From IMG/VR virus record IMGVR_UViG_3300001530_000192: DNA of 31,399 nucleotides. The stretch is one strand, 5' to 3'. The stretch's first letter is position 1, and the number at the start of each line of letters is the position of its first letter. Source of the DNA: a virus. Positions 1 through 31,399 of this stretch are shown piece after piece. A program made the position numbers and the translations under genes. Under the pieces are notes generated by a model. It worked only from the letters and a program-made list of their open reading frames with translations, was not told where the DNA came from and did no database searches.

Positions 1-150
1 CACTATTACCATAGCCGCCGACACCGCAGAAGCCCGAAGCAGACCATACATCTCTTAACCAATACCATTGTCTAGCATTACTATCATTAAATGCTATTTG
101 CTTACTCTTATCCAATCTAAATAAAGATAATTGTGACTTATCAATAGTAT
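1..150. repeat. Terminal direct repeat, left copy. It is identical to 31250..31399 and reflects the overlap of a circular or terminally redundant genome.
   Basis: Bases 1-150 (cactattaccatagccgccgacacc...caatagtat) recur base for base at 31250-31399. The unit length is therefore 31249 bp. Confidence 0.95.
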
Positions 151-766
151 AACTTGCAGGTGTATTTGTTCCATTTGTTATATTACTAAAGAAACTTGCA
201 CCATATACCATATATTCATTCATTAATTCGATTGTAGAGTCAGTCCATTCGCCATCACTTGCATATCCATTAGTTACAGTCTTTGTCAACCAACTTCTAT
301 GTCTTAAAATATGACTAGAGCCAAAATCATTATTTATGACAGTTTTAAAAGGTGCTAAATAAGTAGTATACATTTTACTACCTTTATAACCACCTGTAGA
401 AACATTACTATCATTCATTTTAGCAGTTCCCATACTTAATTCAGGTATCATTAAAACATGTGGTGTGGTACATTCTGTATCGCCACAATGAAGTCTATAA
501 TTAATATCTGCTACTAAATATTTTCTACCACTATTTCTACCTATAATATAATCACCGATAAATATATCATCAAATGTTCCATTAGCAATTTGAGTAGATA
601 AAGTACCATCATAGAATAAATCTGTGATATCTTTACCTCTATATATTGAATTATGAAATCCTGCATTTGGTCTATTCAATATATCGCTTAATTGTTCATC
701 TTTATAGTAAATAGAACTACTTTCTATTCCATTACCATTTTTTACTCTATATATTTTTTTACTCAT
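1..766 (-). CDS. DGR variable target protein, 5' part (candidate tail fibre / receptor-binding protein). The ORF runs off the left edge and continues 31249 -> 31194 across the circular seam, giving 273 aa in total.
   Basis: ATG at 766-764 is preceded by AGGAGG (775-780, minus sense). Hand translation MSKKIYRVKNGNGIESSSIYYKDEQLSDILNRPNAGFHNSIYRGKD...ARQWYWLRDVWSASGFCGVGGYGNS stays open to base 1. The frame is continuous with 31249..31194 once the overlap is removed (822 nt = 274 codons). The ORF is absent from the ORF track because the window edge splits it. Confidence 0.85.
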   Translation of the reverse strand, partial: MSKKIYRVKNGNGIESSSIYYKDEQLSDILNRPNAGFHNSIYRGKDITDLFYDGTLSTQIANGTFDDIFIGDYIIGRNSGRKYLVADINYRLHCGDTECTTPHVLMIPELSMGTAKMNDSNVSTGGYKGSKMYTTYLAPFKTVINNDFGSSHILRHRSWLTKTVTNGYASDGEWTDSTIELMNEYMVYGASFFSNITNGTNTPASYTIDKSQLSLFRLDKSKQIAFNDSNARQWYWLRDVWSASGFCGVGGYGNS

Positions 767-7751: not shown

Positions 7752-8165
7752 CTACTCCTTTGGTAAGTATTTTTCTTGTATTTGTTTCATCGCATTTTCA
7801 ATTTCCTGTTTTTTAAACGATTTTCTAAAGAAAGGCTTTTTTGCCTCACCTCTACTCGTTCCATATTCTCTTGCCATTGCAACTAATGGTGCAGGATGTT
7901 TTTTTTGTGCATCTAAATAGCCATATATCATAACTTTGTTATTAATACTGTCATCAGATGGTGTTCTATATGTTTTTGAAACAAATAAGCACTTACTTAA
8001 TCTATCAGTAGATTTGAATGCCCTTGACAAATTGTTTTGAACAGTCCTTTTAACTGTTTCTGCACCTGCTTTGGTCATTTCACCCATCATTTTTGGAGTT
8101 GCTACTGCCAATTCCTCAAATGATTTAATTAAATCATTAGGTATCTCTGAATTAAAGTGTGCCAT
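7752..8165 (-). CDS. HK97 gp10-like head-tail joining protein.
   Basis: 137 aa. The call rests on position and general resemblance to the HK97 gp10 family (from memory). Confidence 0.5.
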   Translation of the reverse strand: MAHFNSEIPNDLIKSFEELAVATPKMMGEMTKAGAETVKRTVQNNLSRAFKSTDRLSKCLFVSKTYRTPSDDSINNKVMIYGYLDAQKKHPAPLVAMAREYGTSRGEAKKPFFRKSFKKQEIENAMKQIQEKYLPKE

Positions 8166-27254: not shown

Positions 27255-27289
27255 GGCTAGGAATATATCCTAGCCTTTTTATTTTTTTT
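27255..27289 (+). terminator. Rho-independent terminator of the plus-strand moron cassette.
   Basis: ggctagga-atata-tcctagcc, followed by tttttatttttttt. Confidence 0.7.
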
Positions 27290-27322
27290 GTGTGTGCTAC
27301 TTGTGTGCTACTTGTGTGCTAC
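27290..27322 (+). repeat. Three tandem 11-bp iterons (t/g)TGTGTGCTAC.
   Basis: gtgtgtgctac ttgtgtgctac ttgtgtgctac. Confidence 0.85.
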
Positions 27323-27360
27323 ATACTAGATTTAACGAGGTTTATCGAGTATCTTAATAT

Positions 27361-27393: not shown

Positions 27394-27463
27394 TTCGTAA
27401 TAGGTATGTTTCCTATCTCTTTGTAAATTGATGTCCTTTATATTTCAAGGAAAAAAAGGGTAT

Positions 27464-27485
27464 TTGTGTGCTACCTGTGTGTTAC
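27464..27485 (+). repeat. Two further tandem iterons of the same 11-bp family.
   Basis: ttgtgtgctac ctgtgtgttac, in the same orientation as the copies at 27290-27322. Confidence 0.8.
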
Positions 27486-27525
27486 TGAATAGACTTTATA
27501 AGTACTTTATTTTATTAAATAGACA

Positions 27526-27567: not shown

Positions 27568-28428
27568 TTAAAATAATTTAATATTATCCCATCTAGTAAG
27601 ACCTGCATTTAAGTTCTTATTTACTTGATTTTGAACTTCATCATATCTTGAACCTAATGCTTTTCTACGAGCATCACCATTACCAAAATCACCTCTAATA
27701 GTTTTTTTAACTAATGTTAATAGGTCATCAGATGGTTGTGATGGTGTGCTAGGTGTTGATGGTTGACTTGGTGCAGGTTTTCCAACACCTTTATCAACTA
27801 ATGCTTGAACTGCATTATATCTAGAACCTAATTTTGCCTTTCTAGTATCGCCATTACCAAATTCACCTGTCCATACTCTTCTAGCAAGTTCTTCATCGCT
27901 TACACCTTTAAATGGGTCATCTTGACTAGGTGTTCCTGCATGAACATCACCAATAGCAGGGTTAACAATACAACCTCTGAATTTGTAACCACTACTTAAT
28001 CCCCATCTTCCATTTGAATTTGTTCTTATACTATTCCAAAATGCACTAGAACCATATCCACTTTCAGATGTATAGATTTGATTAGCACTATCAATTCTTT
28101 CTACTACTGCAACATGTCCTGCACCATCAGAGCCATTTAAGGTATTTCCTTTTTGCCATACCATAATACCACCTAATGTTGGATATGATACAACTTGTAA
28201 TCCTAAACTTTTTGCTCTTTCGATAAAGTTTTCTGCATTACAATTTAGAGCAGGATATTTCATGCTTCCAATTATTTCATTAAATCTACCACAAGCATAC
28301 CCTACACAGTTAGCAAGTACATTTGCATTTGCATCTGTTGGATATCCTTGAATACAAGTTGAATAACCACCTCTAGATTTAGTGATATAGAACTTATTGC
28401 CACTAGGCTTACTTGTTCTCATTTGCAT
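27568..28428 (-). CDS. Endolysin: N-terminal CHAP domain plus two CW_7 (Cpl-7-like) cell-wall-binding repeats.
   Basis: The CHAP Cys lies in NCVGYACGRF and the His in GHVAVVE. The two repeats are GEFGNGDTRKAKLGSRYNAVQALV and GDFGNGDARRKALGSRYDEVQNQV, separated by a P/S/T linker. The start is reset to ATG 28428 (MQMRTSKP) after GAGGAGGTGG. Confidence 0.85.
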   Translation of the reverse strand: MQMRTSKPSGNKFYITKSRGGYSTCIQGYPTDANANVLANCVGYACGRFNEIIGSMKYPALNCNAENFIERAKSLGLQVVSYPTLGGIMVWQKGNTLNGSDGAGHVAVVERIDSANQIYTSESGYGSSAFWNSIRTNSNGRWGLSSGYKFRGCIVNPAIGDVHAGTPSQDDPFKGVSDEELARRVWTGEFGNGDTRKAKLGSRYNAVQALVDKGVGKPAPSQPSTPSTPSQPSDDLLTLVKKTIRGDFGNGDARRKALGSRYDEVQNQVNKNLNAGLTRWDNIKLF

Positions 28429-28610: not shown

Positions 28611-28814
28611 CTATTTGTTCTCTTTCTTACTATAATTTGCACTAGATATACCTAGTATTACACCTAAAGCAGTATCAATAGCAGTAATTGTAGCACCTAT
28701 TTCTTCGCCATAAGGTATATTCCATATCTTAAATACAGTTATTACCAATGTAGCGATTGCAGGTAATACATACATTGCTATTTTCTTTAAAGTATCATAA
28801 GTTTTATTACTCAT
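28611..28814 (-). CDS. Holin (phage_holin_1 / phiLC3-like).
   Basis: 67 aa. The pattern MSNKTYDTLKKIAMYVLPAIATLV....IW.IPYGEEI..TI.AI...LG..LGIS is typical of this family. Two TM helices are predicted. Confidence 0.8.
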   Translation of the reverse strand: MSNKTYDTLKKIAMYVLPAIATLVITVFKIWNIPYGEEIGATITAIDTALGVILGISSANYSKKENK

Positions 28815-28833
28815 ACTACCACCTCTTTTCTAT

Positions 28834-29073
28834 TTATTTAGGACTTATTTGTATTAATGCAAATATTAAACCTACAATTCCTGCAATAATTGCACCTACA
28901 ATAGTCCTTGATAACCATTTGATTTTGTCTTTTATTTCATCAATATCCCTTTCATTCTGAATAGATAAATTATGGGCATCATCAGTTTTTTCTTTCATGG
29001 TATTGTAATCATCTAATTTTGTTTCAATTTTAGTAAGTCTATCTAAAACTTCCCTCTCAAAACCTTTTTCCAT
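28834..29073 (-). CDS. xhlA: XhlA-family lysis-associated membrane protein.
   Basis: 79 aa with an N-terminal coiled coil (LDRLTKIETKLDD...) and a C-terminal TM helix, located upstream of the holin. Confidence 0.7.
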   Translation of the reverse strand: MEKGFEREVLDRLTKIETKLDDYNTMKEKTDDAHNLSIQNERDIDEIKDKIKWLSRTIVGAIIAGIVGLIFALIQISPK

Positions 29074-29091
29074 CTTTATCCTCCCTCTAGC

Positions 29092-29122
29092 ATAAAAAAA
29101 GACAACTTCGTTTTGTTGCCTT
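29092..29122 (-). terminator. Terminator-like hairpin plus T-run downstream of late motif copy 3 and the RT gene.
   Basis: The minus-strand RNA forms aaggcaac-aaaacgaa-gttgtctt running into ttttttt, homologous to 15598-15626. Confidence 0.5.
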
Positions 29123-29132
29123 ATTATCTATA

Positions 29133-29168
29133 TACATTATAACACGATTTTAGTGTGAGTTTTGTGAA
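29133..29168 (-). promoter_or_regulatory. Conserved late-promoter-like motif, copy 3 (TTCACA-N4-TCACACT-N7-TGTTATAATGTA), overlapping the RT stop codon.
   Basis: Plus strand reads tacattataaca-cgatttt-agtgtga-gttt-tgtgaa. Confidence 0.5.
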
Positions 29169-30286
29169 TTATTAAGAAATAAATCATTGAATAATTTATC
29201 CATATTTAATAATGTTCTATGACAGTCATATTTAGCAATATTTCCTCGCCATGATTTGTATTGCTCTTCTATTTCATTAAATGTCATCTCATTATTATCT
29301 AACATTTTCTTAAAACTCTTTAATTTTCTTCTTTCTCTAACTATATTGCTCTTTACAGGTATTCTAACAAGATGTCCTGTATCAGTTAAACGATATTTTA
29401 TCTTTAAAAATGTAAAACCTTTATCTATTCTAAATATTTGTGTTTTCTTTTTATTGATAAATATACCTAATTTATCACATATAACAACAATATCTTCTAA
29501 TAATTGTTTTAACTCTTCTTTATTGTTACTTAAAATATAGGTATCATCCATATATCTTCCATAATATTTCATTTTTTTAACTATTTTACAATAATTATCC
29601 ATCCTAGTAGGATAATAAATGCCTGAAATTTGCGATATTTGGCTACCTATACCTAATGACTTATGAATGTATCTTTCGCCTGTCCTAGCACCTGTTTTTT
29701 TAGCATAAGTCAAAGAGTCAAATAAGTCTTTTTCTGTTGCATCATAATTTGATACATCTATTGAAAAACTATCTATAAGATGAGCAATTAAATTTAATAT
29801 ATCCTCATCATCAATGATTTCTTTATACATATCCATTAATGGCTTATGTAAAATATTATCATAAAACTTGCTAAAATCGATAATGAGTGCATATCCACGA
29901 TTTCCATACTTTCTATAATACTTGTGTAAGTGAGTTTCAACTCTCTTACGAGCAAAATCAATACCTTTATTCTTTATACTTGCACCATTATCATAAGTTA
30001 GATATGGTGTAACTATGGGAGTCAATTGGTCGCATAATGCTCTTTGTACAACTCTATCATAGAAACTAATGGAGCGAACATATCTCTCTTTACCTCTTTC
30101 ACACAAAAAGAAGTTATCAAATGCACCTTGCTTATAGGTTTTATTCCTTAACTCTATTTGTGTTTTTCTTATATTTTTAAGTAAATTGGCTTCATATTGT
30201 TGAACACTATTTTTCCATATACTATTTTTTCTTGTTTTATAGAAACTATCAACTAAAACATTGGCATTACTAATCTTATCAATCAT
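29150..30286 (-). CDS. rt: DGR-type reverse transcriptase.
   Basis: 378 aa. The RT motifs are IIDFSKFYDNI, SLGIGSQISQ (the DGR-diagnostic [LIV]GxxxSQ motif 4) and RYMDDTYIL (YMDD). The N-terminal ..FYDRVVQRALCDQL.. is typical of DGR RTs. The TR lies 122 nt upstream. Confidence 0.93.
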   Translation of the reverse strand: MIDKISNANVLVDSFYKTRKNSIWKNSVQQYEANLLKNIRKTQIELRNKTYKQGAFDNFFLCERGKERYVRSISFYDRVVQRALCDQLTPIVTPYLTYDNGASIKNKGIDFARKRVETHLHKYYRKYGNRGYALIIDFSKFYDNILHKPLMDMYKEIIDDEDILNLIAHLIDSFSIDVSNYDATEKDLFDSLTYAKKTGARTGERYIHKSLGIGSQISQISGIYYPTRMDNYCKIVKKMKYYGRYMDDTYILSNNKEELKQLLEDIVVICDKLGIFINKKKTQIFRIDKGFTFLKIKYRLTDTGHLVRIPVKSNIVRERRKLKSFKKMLDNNEMTFNEIEEQYKSWRGNIAKYDCHRTLLNMDKLFNDLFLNNSQNSH

Positions 30287-30407
30287 ATTTTGTTCCTAAC
30301 TCTAATTGACTTATCAAAGAGTATCAAAATATCTATTTGCCTCTCGGACAGGATAAAGTTTCCTTTTAATTCTTGCAACGGTACTTAACCTAATCATTGT
30401 GCAAGTT
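30287..30407 (-). ncRNA. DGR spacer region between the TR and the RT start (the noncoding part of the TR-containing RNA).
   Basis: It has no ORF. It contains the stem cttgca/tgcaag (minus sense: CTTGCAcaatgattaggttaagtaccgtTGCAAG) immediately 3' of the TR. Its role is inferred by analogy with the BPP-1 DGR RNA. Confidence 0.4.
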
Positions 30408-30492
30408 AAAATCAGGGGCGAACACCACCAGAGTTGGAAGCATTGTTGTAGTTACTATTACCATTGTTGTTGACATTGCAGAAGCCCGAAGC
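30408..30492 (-). repeat. DGR template repeat (TR).
   Basis: 85 bp align without gaps to 31205-31289 (offset 797). All differences lie at plus-strand T, which is coding-strand A, in this copy. In the VR frame it reads ASGFCNVNNNGNSNYNNASNSGGVRP, with 9 AAY codons. It lies in the noncoding gap between the avd-like gene and the RT. Confidence 0.9.
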
Positions 30493-30513
30493 CCTAATAA
30501 TTTTGAACAAACC

Positions 30514-31074
30514 TTACCCTTTGTTTTCTTCTTCTTTTTTATCTATTTCTTTTATTATTCTATTATCAGATTTTCGCCAACCTTTTAACAACACAATCTC
30601 TTTTTCAATCATATCAACATATCTCATGTATTTCTCTACATTCGGATGACATACATATATAACATATTGCATTTCTTGAAGAAGATTTTCACAATCAATA
30701 ATTGCTTGTGTTTGATAATTTCTTCGCAAATAGTATTCTTCTTTATTAGTTATATGAATTGTATTTGCAGAGCAAATATTCTTCATCATATCTCTCAATA
30801 AATCCATGAAATAATCTCGTTCTTTGTCTATTAGCCATGATGGAAAATTATCAATGAAACTATTTTTGATATCGTATGCAGAGAGAATATCTTCTATTTG
30901 TTCAATATCTTCTTCATCAATATCATATACTTCTTGAGCAAATTCCAAATTTCTTCTTCTTGACTTTATTCCGAAATCTTTCAAAAGAAATTCAGTCATC
31001 ATCAATCTTAATTTTATAGCATTATGATAAAACTCCATCTTTGAAATGTTTCTTTTCCTTTTCAACACACTCAA
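30514..31074 (-). CDS. avd: Avd-like accessory variability determinant candidate (helical, basic termini, atypically long).
   Basis: It lies between the VR and the TR, exactly where avd sits in canonical DGRs. It is 186 aa with predicted helical heptad-like segments and K/R-rich ends. The start is uncertain (TTG 31074 or ATG 31038). I did not see the canonical Avd family motif. Confidence 0.5.
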   Translation of the reverse strand: MSVLKRKRNISKMEFYHNAIKLRLMMTEFLLKDFGIKSRRRNLEFAQEVYDIDEEDIEQIEDILSAYDIKNSFIDNFPSWLIDKERDYFMDLLRDMMKNICSANTIHITNKEEYYLRRNYQTQAIIDCENLLQEMQYVIYVCHPNVEKYMRYVDMIEKEIVLLKGWRKSDNRIIKEIDKKEEENKG

Positions 31075-31095
31075 TATCTATCAACTCCCTATTAT

Positions 31096-31124
31096 ATTCT
31101 ATCTGTTTATTATTTTTATGTCAA
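31096..31124 (-). promoter_or_regulatory. Near-consensus promoter for the avd-TR-RT transcript.
   Basis: Minus strand reads TTGACA (31124-31119), a 17-nt spacer, then TAGAAT (31101-31096), about 20 nt upstream of the avd-like ORF. Confidence 0.5.
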
Positions 31125-31158
31125 TTCATTACAGGAAATTTGATATTTATTTAATCTA

Positions 31159-31196
31159 TAATCTGCCACCCCATAAAGGGGTGTGATTGCAGATTA
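31159..31196 (-). promoter_or_regulatory. Hairpin/cruciform element immediately 3' of the VR (DGR homing-associated structure). It overlaps the target stop codon.
   Basis: The outer stem taatctgc (31159-31166) pairs with gcagatta (31189-31196). The inner GC stem cacccc (31167-31172) pairs with ggggtg (31178-31183). The loop is 5 nt and there is a 5-nt bulge. Confidence 0.6.
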
Positions 31197-31399
31197 ATAG
31201 ATTAAAAAGCAGGGGCGAACACCACCAGAGTCGGAAGCATTGGGGTAGGCACTATTACCATAGCCGCCGACACCGCAGAAGCCCGAAGCAGACCATACAT
31301 CTCTTAACCAATACCATTGTCTAGCATTACTATCATTAAATGCTATTTGCTTACTCTTATCCAATCTAAATAAAGATAATTGTGACTTATCAATAGTAT
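31194..31399 (-). CDS. DGR variable target protein, 3' part (C-terminal variable region). This is the same gene as 1..766 joined through the circular seam.
   Basis: The frame is continuous with 766..1. The C-terminus reads ...WYWLRDVWSASGFCGVGGYGNSAYPNASDSGGVRPCFLIY, ending at TAA 31194-31196. Confidence 0.85.
   Translation of the reverse strand, partial: TIDKSQLSLFRLDKSKQIAFNDSNARQWYWLRDVWSASGFCGVGGYGNSAYPNASDSGGVRPCFLIY
31205..31289 (-). repeat. DGR variable repeat (VR) at the 3' end of the target gene. Positions 31250-31289 are duplicated at 1-40.
   Basis: It aligns to TR 30408-30492. There are 12 substitutions in the 80-bp core plus 1 at the 3' boundary, and every one lies opposite a TR adenine. 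Confidence 0.9.
31250..31399. repeat. Terminal direct repeat, right copy (identical to 1..150).
   Basis: See the left copy (1..150). Confidence 0.95.

What the first reader, a model, noticed from the sequence alone, without database searches (positions are those of the whole stretch)
30408..30492. TR/VR pair shows strictly adenine-specific differences concentrated in AAY codons
The ungapped alignment TR 30413-30492 against VR 31210-31289 has 12 mismatches. The mismatched TR positions are 30435, 30446, 30447, 30452, 30453, 30465, 30467, 30468, 30470, 30471, 30476 and 30477. Every one is a plus-strand T, that is a coding-strand A, in the TR, and no non-A position differs.

The TR core has 20 adenines, of which 12 are changed and 8 are unchanged. 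In the VR reading frame the TR carries 9 AAY codons, and 7 of them are altered in the VR:
- AAC -> GAC (D)
- AAC -> CCC (P)
- AAC -> GCC (A)
- AAT -> TAT (Y)
- AAC -> GGC (G)
- AAC -> GGC (G)
- AAT -> GGT (G)

The TR encodes ASGFCNVNNNGNSNYNNASNSGGVRP and the VR encodes ASGFCGVGGYGNSAYPNASDSGGVRP. In principle 20 variable adenines allow 4^20 (about 10^12) DNA variants.

A thirteenth T/G difference at 30412/31209 lies at the 3' boundary. The TR would read TGA there, where the VR reads TGC. This may be an IMH versus IMH* difference rather than a mutagenesis product.
Basis: seen in the sequence. Interest (0 to 1): 0.9.

Follow-up and report, generated by a model that had tools for sequence, protein, structure and literature searches.

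The report
Active diversity-generating retroelement in gut phage
This is a complete and evidently working diversity-generating retroelement, a reverse-transcriptase cassette that rewrites the tip of a phage tail-fibre gene at adenine-templated positions, in a small temperate phage of an uncultured gut Firmicute; it is a clean new example of a well-known kind of system.

Summary
TR 30408-30492 and VR 31205-31289 align without gaps and differ at 13 positions, and every one is a coding-strand adenine in the TR (P = 2e-9 for 12/12; 3e-10 for 13/13).

On the minus strand the order is target gene, avd-like gene, TR, structured spacer, reverse transcriptase, which is the classic DGR layout.

- **Accessory protein:** the 186-aa ORF is an enlarged Avd relative.
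- **Target:** a 273-aa DUF6273 tail-fibre-like protein that wraps across the circular contig junction.

The decisive evidence is comparative. Two contigs from other samples match the window over 21,137 and 12,873 nt apart from 8 and 10 mismatches. All 18 lie inside the VR at TR-adenine positions. Across 15 VR alleles and 4 TR versions, 161 of 162 differences fall at TR adenines.

The 13th difference (TGA in TR, TGC in VR) is fixed in all 15 alleles, so it marks the IMH/IMH* boundary. A GC-rich hairpin follows every VR, and the TR-RT spacer RNA fold shows strong covariation.

DUF6273-targeting DGRs in gut phages are already published. Verdict: real and recently active, a new member of a known kind, of modest interest.

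The parts
1..766 (-). 5' part of the DGR target gene. The ATG is at 764-766. Bases 1-150 duplicate 31250-31399 because the contig is circular. The gene continues at 31399 and runs down to 31194, giving 273 aa in total.
   Evidence: A 150-nt terminal overlap and an in-frame read-through across the junction. The same 273-aa gene is called on L001-L003 directly after the tail genes. DUF6273 is hit by 31/31 family members, and some relatives are fused to the PF12571 tail-collar fibre domain. Lactobacillus phage JCL1032 ORF23, annotated 'tail fiber protein', is 41.6% identical.
31194..31399 (-). 3' end of the target gene. It encodes the C-terminal DUF6273 segment and the VR, with the stop codon at 31194-31196.
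   Evidence: The ORF listing shows ...WYWLRDVWSASGFCGVGGYGNSAYPNASDSGGVRPCFLIY*. Pfam DUF6273 E = 1.2e-5, 25.7 bits against a cut-off of 23.5.
31205..31289 (-). Variable repeat (VR). The adenine-templated, variable tract is 31231-31274.
   Evidence: 85% identical to the TR without gaps. All inter-sample differences lie in 31232-31274. There are 15 distinct alleles in relatives.
31205..31230 (-). IMH-like 3' end of the VR, coding strand CTCTGGTGGTGTTCGCCCCTGCTTTT. It is an A-free, GC-rich segment followed by the fixed C (31209) that distinguishes it from the TR.
   Evidence: The segment is identical between TR and VR except for 31209/30412. That position is C in 15/15 VR alleles and A in all TRs. 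IMH function is inferred by analogy with BPP-1 (PMC5758913).
31150..31206 (-). Inverted repeat (hairpin or cruciform) immediately 3' of the VR. The apical GC stem is CACCCC/GGGGTG (31178-31183 / 31167-31172). The target gene's stop codon lies in the 5' arm.
   Evidence: DNA fold -18.1 kcal/mol, z = -5.6, 0/200 shuffles as good. A GC-rich hairpin with a different stem sequence follows the VR in every family member examined, including those whose RT is only 26-50% identical.
31096..31124 (-). Promoter-like site (TTGACA-17-TAGAAT) upstream of avd-TR-RT.
   Evidence: Best-scoring site in the region, 11 of 12 matches. This is a consensus match only, and the total number of sites does not exceed that in shuffles.
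30514..31074 (-). Accessory gene: an Avd-family protein of 186 aa with a TTG start. It has an N-terminal extension of roughly 55-85 residues, basic at 1-40 and acidic at 41-85.
   Evidence: PHROG 3206 'Avd protein of DGR' is hit by 29/30 family members, best E = 6.8e-12. hhalign against Roseburia phage Shimadzu 'Avd' gives prob 97.9%, E = 3.4e-13. Against the Acutalibacter phage Fontainebleau 184-aa ORF it gives 99.3%. The AF2 model is all-helical, and the top BFVD hits are 'Avd-like protein'. There is no Pfam hit and no detectable similarity to BPP-1 Avd. pI is 5.6.
30408..30492 (-). Template repeat (TR). It is non-coding, begins 22 nt after the avd stop codon, and has 21 adenines, 18 of them in 9 AAY codons. 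It ends in an IMH*-like segment with A at 30412.
   Evidence: It is identical in L001-L004 from other samples, and only 4 TR versions exist against 15 VR alleles.
30287..30407 (-). TR-RT spacer, which encodes a conserved structured RNA of six helices.
   Evidence: RNAalifold predicts 28 pairs. 94.6% of cells are paired against 41-47% in slid controls, 18 pairs have compensatory changes against 2-5 in controls, and 0/500 shuffles reach the observed value. There is no Rfam match.
29150..30286 (-). DGR reverse transcriptase, 378 aa.
   Evidence: RVT_1 2.9e-22. PHROG 1423 4.8e-75. The best PDB match is 8ub7_A, which is BPP-1 Brt. Full-length BLASTP against Brt gives 25% identity, E = 4e-25, with R68 aligned to Brt R74 and I213 to Brt I181. 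IGSQISQ is at 213 and YMDD at 245.
29099..29122 (-). Terminator-like hairpin with a T-run after the RT gene.
   Evidence: Consensus scan only.

Best explanation
[quoted passage not shown] The cassette order is target-avd-TR-RT. It sits in a temperate siphovirus-like phage of about 31.2 kb that infects an uncultured low-GC gut Firmicute.

Inferred mechanism, by homology with Bordetella phage BPP-1:
1. The avd-TR-spacer-RT unit is transcribed.
2. The structured spacer RNA recruits the RT-Avd complex and primes cDNA synthesis into the 3' end of the TR.
3. The RT copies C, G and U faithfully but inserts any nucleotide opposite template adenines.
4. The cDNA replaces the VR at the 3' end of the tail-fibre-like DUF6273 gene. 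Targeting is by the GC-rich IMH segment and the hairpin downstream of the VR.

The result is randomisation of up to 11 codons (9 AAY codons plus AGT and TAC) in the presumed receptor-binding surface. AAY codons cannot mutate to a stop codon.

What is shown here: the anatomy, the adenine-only substitution pattern, the invariance of the TR against the hypervariability of the VR in nature, the fixed boundary, the conserved hairpin, and the conserved spacer RNA fold.

What is inferred: the priming chemistry, the role of IMH and the hairpin in homing, and receptor binding by the target.
For: - **Mismatch pattern in the window:** 13/13 mismatches are at TR adenines, P = 2e-9 to 3e-10.
- **Contigs from other samples:** L001 and L002 are identical to the window over 21,137 and 12,873 nt except for 8 and 10 mismatches. 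All of these lie in 31232-31274, at TR-adenine sites, while the TR is unchanged.
- **Whole family:** across 15 VR alleles and 4 TR versions, 161/162 differences are at TR adenines. The changes are A>G 78, A>C 44 (15 of them the fixed boundary position) and A>T 39. All 20 core adenines vary in at least one allele.
- **More distant RT relatives:** relatives with 26-50% RT identity also have A-specific TR/VR pairs. The CW_7 repeats in the endolysin, an internal control, differ at all four bases.
- **RT:** it is the DGR type.
- **Accessory protein:** it belongs to the Avd family.
- **Target:** it carries DUF6273, a published C-lectin-like DGR target domain with a C-terminal VR (PMC10743442, PMC11792537, bioRxiv 10.1101/2024.10.15.618418).
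- **Cis elements:** a GC-rich hairpin follows the VR throughout the family, and the spacer RNA shows covariation.
- **Single target:** only one VR-like copy exists in the window.
Against: Nothing contradicts the reading. The caveats are as follows.
- No reads were available, so heterogeneity within a sample and the physical reality of this exact VR allele are untested. L003 carries the identical allele but may come from the same sample as the window.
- The target's C-type-lectin fold could not be confirmed here. The AF2 model scored pLDDT 60.6, with the VR region below 50, and the Foldseek hits were meaningless.
- On the full-length window protein DUF6273 scores 22.9 bits, just under the 23.5 cut-off.
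- The accessory protein has no detectable similarity to BPP-1 Avd or Pfam PF05635, and unlike typical Avd it is net acidic.
- The promoter and terminator calls are consensus matches only.
Confidence: 0.96

Rival explanations
1. Fossil DGR. The cassette was active in the past but is now inert, and the TR/VR differences are relics.
For: A single TR/VR pair cannot distinguish past from present activity.
Against: Genomes identical over 12.9-21.1 kb carry three different VR alleles that differ at 8-10 TR-adenine sites, with no other substitution anywhere. VR turnover is therefore much faster than the background mutation rate. The RT ORF is intact with its catalytic YMDD, and the TR, spacer and avd are all conserved.
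Confidence: 0.03
2. Ordinary duplicated segment or recombinational cassette. This would be gene conversion or a shufflon-like exchange between a silent copy and the expressed copy, with divergence by chance or selection and no reverse transcription.
For: There are two 85-nt direct repeats 797 nt apart, one of them in a surface-protein gene.
Against: Chance divergence would hit all four bases, yet here 161/162 differences are at adenines of one copy only (P = 2e-9 for the window pair). Gene conversion from the TR would erase differences rather than create A-to-N changes. A DGR-type RT and an Avd relative sit next to the silent copy.
Confidence: 0.005
3. Adenine deamination or editing (A-to-I type) of the VR, not error-prone reverse transcription.
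For: The changes are adenine-specific, and A>G is the commonest class (78 of 161).
Against: Deamination gives only A>G. Here A>C (29 within the variable tract) and A>T (39) together are almost as common as A>G. The unchanged donor copy and the adjacent RT and Avd genes have no role in a deaminase model.
Confidence: 0.005
4. The specific VR sequence in the window is an assembly consensus or chimera of several co-existing alleles, not one real molecule. The element would still be a DGR.
For: The contig's circular junction (1-150 = 31250-31399) falls inside the VR, which is where an assembly graph would break if the VR were polymorphic in the sample.
Against: An independently assembled contig (L003, Logan SRR873602) has exactly the same VR allele across a 10-kb identical stretch. 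It may, however, come from the same sample as the window.
Confidence: 0.1

Closest known systems
Bordetella phage BPP-1 DGR (mtd-avd-TR-brt), the prototype
   Same: - The gene order is the same: target, accessory gene, TR, spacer, RT.
- The VR is at the 3' end of a tail receptor-binding gene.
- TR/VR differences are adenine-only in the variable tract. The BPP-1 pair analysed the same way gives 17 A-site changes.
- The TR is rich in AAY codons.
- The repeats end in a GC-rich segment, followed by a TR/VR-distinguishing difference and then an inverted repeat after the VR only (PMC5758913, PMC12875486).
- The RT aligns full-length with Brt and keeps the residues equivalent to Brt R74 and I181, plus IGSxxSQ and YMDD.
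- The spacer is a structured RNA (PMC12875486).
   Different: - RT identity is only 25%.
- The TR is shorter (85 against 134 nt).
- IMH and IMH* differ at one position against five in BPP-1, and homology ends 4 nt later.
- The accessory protein is 186 aa and net acidic, with an N-terminal extension. It has no detectable similarity to the 128-aa, pI 9.6 BPP-1 Avd.
- The target is a 273-aa DUF6273 protein, not Mtd.
- The host is a Gram-positive gut anaerobe and the phage is a siphovirus-like temperate phage.
DGRs of Roseburia phage Shimadzu and Acutalibacter phage Fontainebleau, the closest deposited phages
   Same: - The cassette sits in the same place: tail fibre, Avd, TR, RT, then lysis genes.
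- RT identity is 38% and 37%.
- The Avd-family match is 97.9% and 99.3% hhalign probability. The C-terminal LKGWRK(S/N)D motif is shared with Shimadzu Avd, and the long N-terminal extension is shared with Fontainebleau.
- The Fontainebleau target is 49% identical over 71% of the window's target.
   Different: They belong to different phage lineages. No nucleotide-level similarity was found by megablast of 28800-31399 against 50,697 phage records, and every RT hit is below 60% identity. The window's lineage is known only from metagenomes and MAGs.
DUF6273-targeting DGRs of gut phages: nd4/nd12 'tentaclin' phages, Faecalibacterium prophages Lelie, Roos, Pioen and CP11, and Toutatisvirus
   Same: The target carries DUF6273 with the VR at the C-terminus of the domain. 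The literature reports the domain as C-type-lectin-like and as a likely receptor-binding protein (PMC10743442, PMC11792537, bioRxiv 10.1101/2024.10.15.618418).
   Different: The window has a single small target with no Ig-like or Fn3 domains and no second target. RT identity to phage nd12 is about 29%.

Membership tests
Diversity-generating retroelement (DGR) | A reverse transcriptase of the DGR clade: closest to Brt, with the motif-4 signature [I/L/V]GxxxSQ and a catalytic YxDD. | tested here: met
   The best solved-structure match is 8ub7_A, which is BPP-1 Brt. Full-length alignment to Brt gives E = 4e-25. IGSQISQ is at 213 and YMDD at 245. Group II intron, retron and Drt models score far below their cut-offs.
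Diversity-generating retroelement (DGR) | A TR/VR near-repeat pair whose differences are confined to adenines of the TR. | tested here: met
   13/13 in the window. 161/162 across 15 alleles.
Diversity-generating retroelement (DGR) | The VR lies inside (usually at the 3' end of) a protein-coding target gene, and the TR is a non-coding copy next to the RT. | tested here: met
   The VR encodes residues about 243-269 of the 273-aa target. The TR lies between the avd stop and the RT start, and in the VR frame it would read a TGA stop.
Diversity-generating retroelement (DGR) | IMH at the 3' end of the VR and a non-identical IMH* at the 3' end of the TR, beginning with a GC-rich segment and marking the 3' limit of mutagenesis. 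| tested here: met
   A 21-nt A-free, GC-rich segment is followed by a difference that is fixed in 15/15 alleles (C in the VR, A in the TR), and homology ends 4 nt later. Whether it functions in homing cannot be tested here.
Diversity-generating retroelement (DGR) | A GC-rich inverted repeat downstream of IMH. It is present in 34% of DGRs (PMC5758913) and required for efficient homing in BPP-1. | tested here: met
   z = -5.6. It is present after the VR in all family members, with different stem sequences.
Diversity-generating retroelement (DGR) | An accessory variability determinant (Avd), found in 74% of DGRs. It is a small, basic four-helix-bundle protein. | tested here: inconclusive
   Family membership is met: PHROG 'Avd protein of DGR' in 29/30 members, hhalign 97.9% to an annotated phage Avd, and top BFVD fold hits named 'Avd-like protein'. 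The protein is nevertheless atypical. It is 186 aa with pI 5.6, has no PF05635 hit, and gives hhalign probability 0.07 to BPP-1 Avd. Pentamer formation and RT binding cannot be tested here.
Diversity-generating retroelement (DGR) | Ongoing mutagenic retrohoming: the VR turns over while the TR is stable. | tested here: met
   This is comparative evidence only. Genomes 100% identical outside the VR carry different VR alleles, and the TR is identical. It has not been shown experimentally.
Diversity-generating retroelement (DGR) | A structured spacer RNA between the TR and the RT that recruits RT-Avd and self-primes (BPP-1; PMC12875486). | tested here: inconclusive
   A conserved fold is strongly supported by covariation. 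Its equivalence to the BPP-1 spacer and the identity of the priming adenine were not established.
DUF6273 / C-type-lectin-fold DGR variable proteins | A match to Pfam DUF6273 with the VR at the C-terminus of the domain. | tested here: met
   The C-terminal fragment scores 25.7 bits against a cut-off of 23.5. The full-length protein scores 22.9 bits, just under the cut-off. 31/31 family members match, best E = 4.6e-9.
DUF6273 / C-type-lectin-fold DGR variable proteins | A C-type-lectin fold that displays the variable residues on one surface. | tested here: inconclusive
   The AF2 model scored pLDDT 60.6, with the VR region below 50. The Foldseek PDB hits are meaningless, and a profile search of PDB finds nothing. 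The fold assignment rests on the literature for other DUF6273 proteins (PMC10743442).

The most novel reading that the evidence does not exclude
This lineage may operate a DGR ribonucleoprotein that differs from the BPP-1 paradigm. Its Avd relative is about 50% larger, with a conserved basic-then-acidic N-terminal extension. It is net acidic in this phage, whereas Avd proteins are typically basic nucleic-acid binders. It is paired with a lineage-specific six-helix spacer RNA that is in no RNA family database. The RT may also spare particular adenines: a synonymous GCA adenine is unchanged in 7/7 alleles. That would point to template-context or RNA-structure control over which adenines are mutagenised.
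Probability: 0.25. Interest if true: 0.45.

Novelty: new member of a known kind. Interest (0 to 1): 0.3.

Why it matters
This is a textbook-clean natural demonstration that a DGR is working in the human gut. Phage genomes identical over up to 21 kb differ only at template-adenine positions in about 45 nt of a tail-fibre gene. That gives a compact (about 2.2 kb), apparently self-contained avd-TR-RT unit from a Gram-positive phage, with defined cis elements: an IMH-like boundary, a hairpin and a structured spacer. It could serve as a comparator to BPP-1 for mechanistic work or for engineering targeted mutagenesis in Firmicutes. It does not change what is known about DGRs.

Tried and rejected
- **Exact pattern in IMG/VR.** The full A-masked TR pattern found nothing. 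A shorter core pattern and a protein-based locus search then succeeded.
- **Megablast of 28800-31399 against deposited phages.** No match.
- **Pfam and NCBIfam on the 186-aa ORF.** No meaningful hit.
- **PDB searches with the 186-aa ORF.** The single sequence gave only chance-level hits. The family profile found nothing.
- **hhalign of the 186-aa family against BPP-1 Avd.** Probability 0.07. The Avd assignment had to come from PHROGs, from phage Avd homologues and from fold search.
- **Foldseek of the Avd model against PDB.** Only weak hits (E about 1) to the four-helix-bundle proteins 2rld and 2gsc, so it was not decisive alone.
- **Structure of the target.** The model was too poor for fold assignment, and a profile search against PDB was empty.
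- **Whole TR-plus-spacer RNA fold of the single sequence.** No better than shuffles, z = 0.32. Only the comparative analysis revealed the structure.
- **Rfam scan.** No family.
- **tRNA scan for an integration site in six prophage-bearing loci.** None found.
- **Host identification.** Not pursued with a database-wide protein search. The MAG labels disagree (Bacilli, Clostridia, Muribaculaceae).
- **Rejected explanations.** Chance duplication, a recombination cassette, deaminase editing and a fossil DGR were all considered and rejected (see rival explanations).
Full report
**1. The observation**

An ungapped comparison at an offset of 797 nt gives an 85-nt repeat, 30408-30492 against 31205-31289. 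It has 13 mismatches at precisely the listed coordinates. In every case the TR copy has a plus-strand T, which is an A on the minus (coding) strand.

The 80-nt core contains 20 such adenines, 12 of them changed. The probability that 12 random mismatches all fall on that one base is 2.1e-9. Including the boundary position, 13/13 in 85 nt, it is 2.8e-10.

The translations, the nine AAY codons with seven altered, and the TGA/TGC boundary difference are all as stated. One claim is weaker than it sounds. 'Concentrated in AAY codons' is trivial for this one pair, because 18 of the 20 adenines are in AAY codons (P = 0.15). Across the family it does become significant: 141/270 changed at AAY adenines against 5/30 at the others, P = 1.9e-4.

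**2. What surrounds it**

The first and last 150 nt of the window are identical, so the contig closes into a circle of about 31,249 bp. The gene that carries the VR reads in frame across that junction. It runs on the minus strand from 766 down to 151, then from 31399 down to 31194, and encodes 273 aa. The same 273-aa gene is called on related contigs directly after the tail genes (Dit, Sipho_Gp37-like, and a 241-aa structural protein).

Reading the minus strand, the order is:
- target gene with the VR at its 3' end;
- a strong inverted repeat (31150-31206);
- the best promoter-like site of the region (31124-31096, 11/12 matches);
- a 186-aa ORF (30514-31074);
- the TR (30408-30492);
- a 121-nt spacer;
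- a 378-aa reverse transcriptase (29150-30286);
- a terminator-like hairpin;
- XhlA, a Dp-1-type holin and a CHAP+CW_7 endolysin, with an integrase on the other strand.

This is a small temperate siphovirus-like phage. Several related contigs of 64-176 kb lose homology to the window at about 27414, between the endolysin and the integrase, so they are integrated prophages. The MAG labels are 'uncultured Bacilli bacterium' and 'uncultured Clostridia bacterium', and one contig is from a human gut metagenome. GC content is about 28%.

**3. The proteins**

*Reverse transcriptase.* The RT hits RVT_1 (2.9e-22) and the phage RT PHROG (4.8e-75). Its closest solved structure is 8ub7_A, which I confirmed to be BPP-1 Brt. 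It aligns with Brt over its whole length (25% identity, E = 4e-25). Residues R68 and I213 align with Brt R74 and I181, and it has IGSQISQ and YMDD. From my own knowledge, the [I/L]GxxxSQ motif and those two residues are DGR-RT hallmarks tied to adenine mutagenesis. Models for group II intron, retron and Drt RTs score far below their cut-offs.

*The 186-aa ORF.* This was the least obvious part. It has no Pfam or NCBIfam hit, the family profile finds nothing in PDB, and hhalign gives probability 0.07 against BPP-1 Avd. The evidence that it is nonetheless an Avd relative is:
- 29 of 30 family members hit PHROG 3206 'Avd protein of DGR', best E = 6.8e-12;
- the family profile matches the annotated Avd of Roseburia phage Shimadzu at 97.9% probability (E = 3.4e-13), including a shared C-terminal LKGWRK(S/N)D motif;
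- it matches the 184-aa ORF in the same slot of Acutalibacter phage Fontainebleau at 99.3% over its full length;
- the AF2 model (pLDDT 73) is all-helical;
- its two best matches among viral predicted structures are 'Avd-like protein' (prob 1.00, TM 0.64-0.68 on the target), and its best natural PDB matches are the four-helix-bundle proteins 2rld and 2gsc.

I conclude it is an Avd-family protein with an N-terminal extension, basic at residues 1-40 and acidic at 41-85. In this phage it is net acidic (pI 5.6, against a family mean of 8.2 and about 9.5 for typical Avd; PMC5758913).

*The target.* It hits DUF6273, at borderline score for this protein (25.7 bits for the C-terminal fragment and 22.9 bits for the full length, against a cut-off of 23.5) but in 31/31 relatives (best E = 4.6e-9). 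Some relatives are fused to the phage tail-collar fibre domain PF12571. Lactobacillus phage JCL1032 ORF23, annotated as a tail fibre protein, is 41.6% identical. My structure model was too poor (pLDDT 60.6, VR region below 50) to assign a fold. Published work reports DUF6273 domains as C-type-lectin-like DGR targets with the VR at the C-terminus of the domain (PMC10743442, PMC11792537, bioRxiv 10.1101/2024.10.15.618418).

**4. The decisive test: related sequences**

An exact-protein look-up found five contigs from other assemblies with the identical RT. A protein-based scan found 22 viral contigs with 26-99% RT identity. Pattern scans with every TR adenine masked found eight more loci in genomes and metagenomes.

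The results were as follows.
- **Near-identical genomes.** L001 (ERZ12302813) equals the window over 21,137 nt except for 8 mismatches. L002 (ERZ12302819) equals it over 12,873 nt except for 10. All 18 mismatches lie in window 31232-31274, inside the VR, at positions templated by TR adenines. The TR is identical in both.
- **The close family.** There are 15 distinct VR alleles but only 4 TR versions. Of 162 TR/VR differences, 161 are at TR adenines (A>G 78, A>C 44, A>T 39, and one G>T). All 20 core adenines vary in at least one allele.
- **Distant relatives.** De novo repeat detection in the more distant loci also finds A-specific TR/VR pairs upstream of the RT. The CW_7 repeats of the endolysin, an internal control, differ at all four bases.

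The VR therefore turns over much faster than the rest of the genome accumulates any substitution. The element is recently and probably currently active.

**5. The boundary and the cis elements**

The 13th difference (TR A, VR C; window 30412/31209) is also at a TR adenine, but it behaves differently. It is C in 15/15 VR alleles. If it were mutagenised and merely selected to encode Cys, TGT should appear as often as TGC (P about 3e-5). It is therefore a fixed TR/VR difference that lies just after a 21-nt A-free, GC-rich segment (CTCTGGTGGTGTTCGCCCCTG), and homology ends 4 nt further on. BPP-1 analysed the same way shows five IMH/IMH* differences.

Immediately downstream of the VR, and not of the TR, is an imperfect inverted repeat with a GC apical stem. 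As DNA it folds at -18.1 kcal/mol, z = -5.6, with 0/200 shuffles as good. A GC-rich hairpin occupies this place in every family member, with different stem sequences in different lineages. This matches the stem-loop that promotes homing in BPP-1 (PMC12875486, PMC5758913).

The TR-RT spacer folds no better than shuffles as a single sequence. An alignment of 11 relatives, however, supports six helices. 94.6% of cells are paired against 41-47% when partners are slid, 18 pairs have compensatory changes against 2-5, and 0/500 shuffles reach the observed value. This is consistent with the structured spacer that recruits RT-Avd in BPP-1 (PMC12875486). No Rfam family matches.

**6. Mechanism**

Shown here:
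- the complete cassette anatomy;
- the adenine-only, three-way substitution spectrum;
- a stable TR against a hypervariable VR in nature;
- a fixed 3' boundary;
- a conserved hairpin and a conserved spacer RNA fold;
- a single target.

Inferred from BPP-1:
- transcription of avd-TR-spacer-RT;
- recruitment of RT-Avd by the spacer RNA and self-priming;
- adenine-mutagenic cDNA synthesis through the TR;
- replacement of the VR, guided by IMH and the hairpin;
- diversification of a receptor-binding surface.

Nine AAY codons plus AGT and TAC give at most 15^9 x 16 = 6.2e11 proteins from 4^20 = 1.1e12 DNA sequences.

**7. Rivals**

- **Fossil DGR.** Excluded by the inter-sample data.
- **Chance duplication or a recombination cassette.** Excluded by the adenine specificity.
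- **Deaminase editing.** Excluded by the abundant A>C and A>T changes.
- **Chimeric VR allele.** The one live caveat is that the exact VR allele in the window could be an assembly consensus of a mixed population, because the contig junction falls inside the VR. L003 has the same allele but may come from the same sample.

**8. Comparison and novelty**

This is a member of the DGR family with the common target-avd-TR-RT architecture (architecture B in PMC5758913). It is closest functionally to BPP-1. Among deposited phages it is closest to the DGRs of Roseburia phage Shimadzu and Acutalibacter phage Fontainebleau (RT 37-38% identity, same cassette position). Its target domain has already been reported as a DGR target in gut phages.

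No deposited phage resembles it at nucleotide level, so the phage lineage itself is known only from metagenomes. It is a new member of a known kind. The enlarged, acidic Avd relative and the lineage-specific spacer RNA are the only mildly unusual features.

I score interest at 0.3. It is a clean and well-supported case, but a specialist would not be surprised by it.

Noticed in passing
window 1-150 and 31250-31399: The first and last 150 nt are identical, so the contig is a closed circle of about 31,249 bp. The junction lies inside the VR (31250-31289). That is where an assembler would break if the VR were polymorphic in the sample.
   Followed up: partly
window about 27414, with repeats at 27287-27333 and 27461-27496: Five related long contigs (L002, L006, L031, L033, L034) lose homology to the window at about 27414, between the endolysin and the integrase. 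This is the probable attP crossover. It is flanked on both sides by GTAGCACACAA-type direct repeats that may be integrase arm sites. No tRNA gene was found in the six prophage-bearing loci scanned.
   Followed up: partly
L008-L012, L028-L030, L032, L035; TR core position 45, equivalent to window 30448: These TR variants read GCA (Ala) where the window has GCT, which adds an adenine at a synonymous site. That adenine is unchanged in 7 of 7 VR alleles, although the mean per-adenine change rate is 0.49 (P about 0.009). This may reflect context-dependent fidelity of the RT.
   Followed up: partly
L033:7095-7200 and 7890-7990: This locus is a mosaic. The VR 5' flank is of the window type but the TR is of the L006 type, so TR/VR homology starts later. 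This illustrates a movable 5' boundary, or recombination between phages. It also carries the only non-adenine TR/VR difference seen, a G>T in the GC-rich 3' segment.
   Followed up: no
window 31214-31226 and 30417-30429 (minus strand): The IMH-like segment GGTGGTGTTCGCC followed by CCTG[C/A]TTTT scores as a small terminator-like hairpin plus T-run in both the VR and the TR. Its significance is unknown.
   Followed up: no
window 30514-31074 (minus strand): The Avd relative belongs to a family of more than 200 proteins with no Pfam domain. The family has an invariant C-terminal LLKGWRKSDN motif and a conserved N-terminal extension. The window's copy is the most acidic of the 30 examined (pI 5.6 against a mean of 8.2).
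   Followed up: yes
window 27631-27694 and 27805-27868: The direct repeats inside the endolysin gene are the two CW_7 cell-wall-binding repeats. Their mismatches fall on all four bases, so they served as an internal negative control for adenine specificity.
   Followed up: yes
L030 (CAYLJU010000001.1): A prophage-bearing contig of 100 kb is labelled 'uncultured Muribaculaceae bacterium', whereas sister contigs are labelled Bacilli or Clostridia. The phage itself has Gram-positive-type lysis genes (CHAP+CW_7 endolysin, Dp-1 holin, XhlA). The label is probably a mis-binned contig or a wrong MAG assignment.
   Followed up: no
Lactobacillus phages JCL1032, CR28 and T280 (hits H16-H20): These phages have homologues of the DGR target (35-42% identity over 86-88% of its length), annotated as a tail fibre or structural protein. 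None of them appears among the 15 listed RT hits (48 more records were not listed), so the same receptor-binding module may be used there without a DGR.
   Followed up: no
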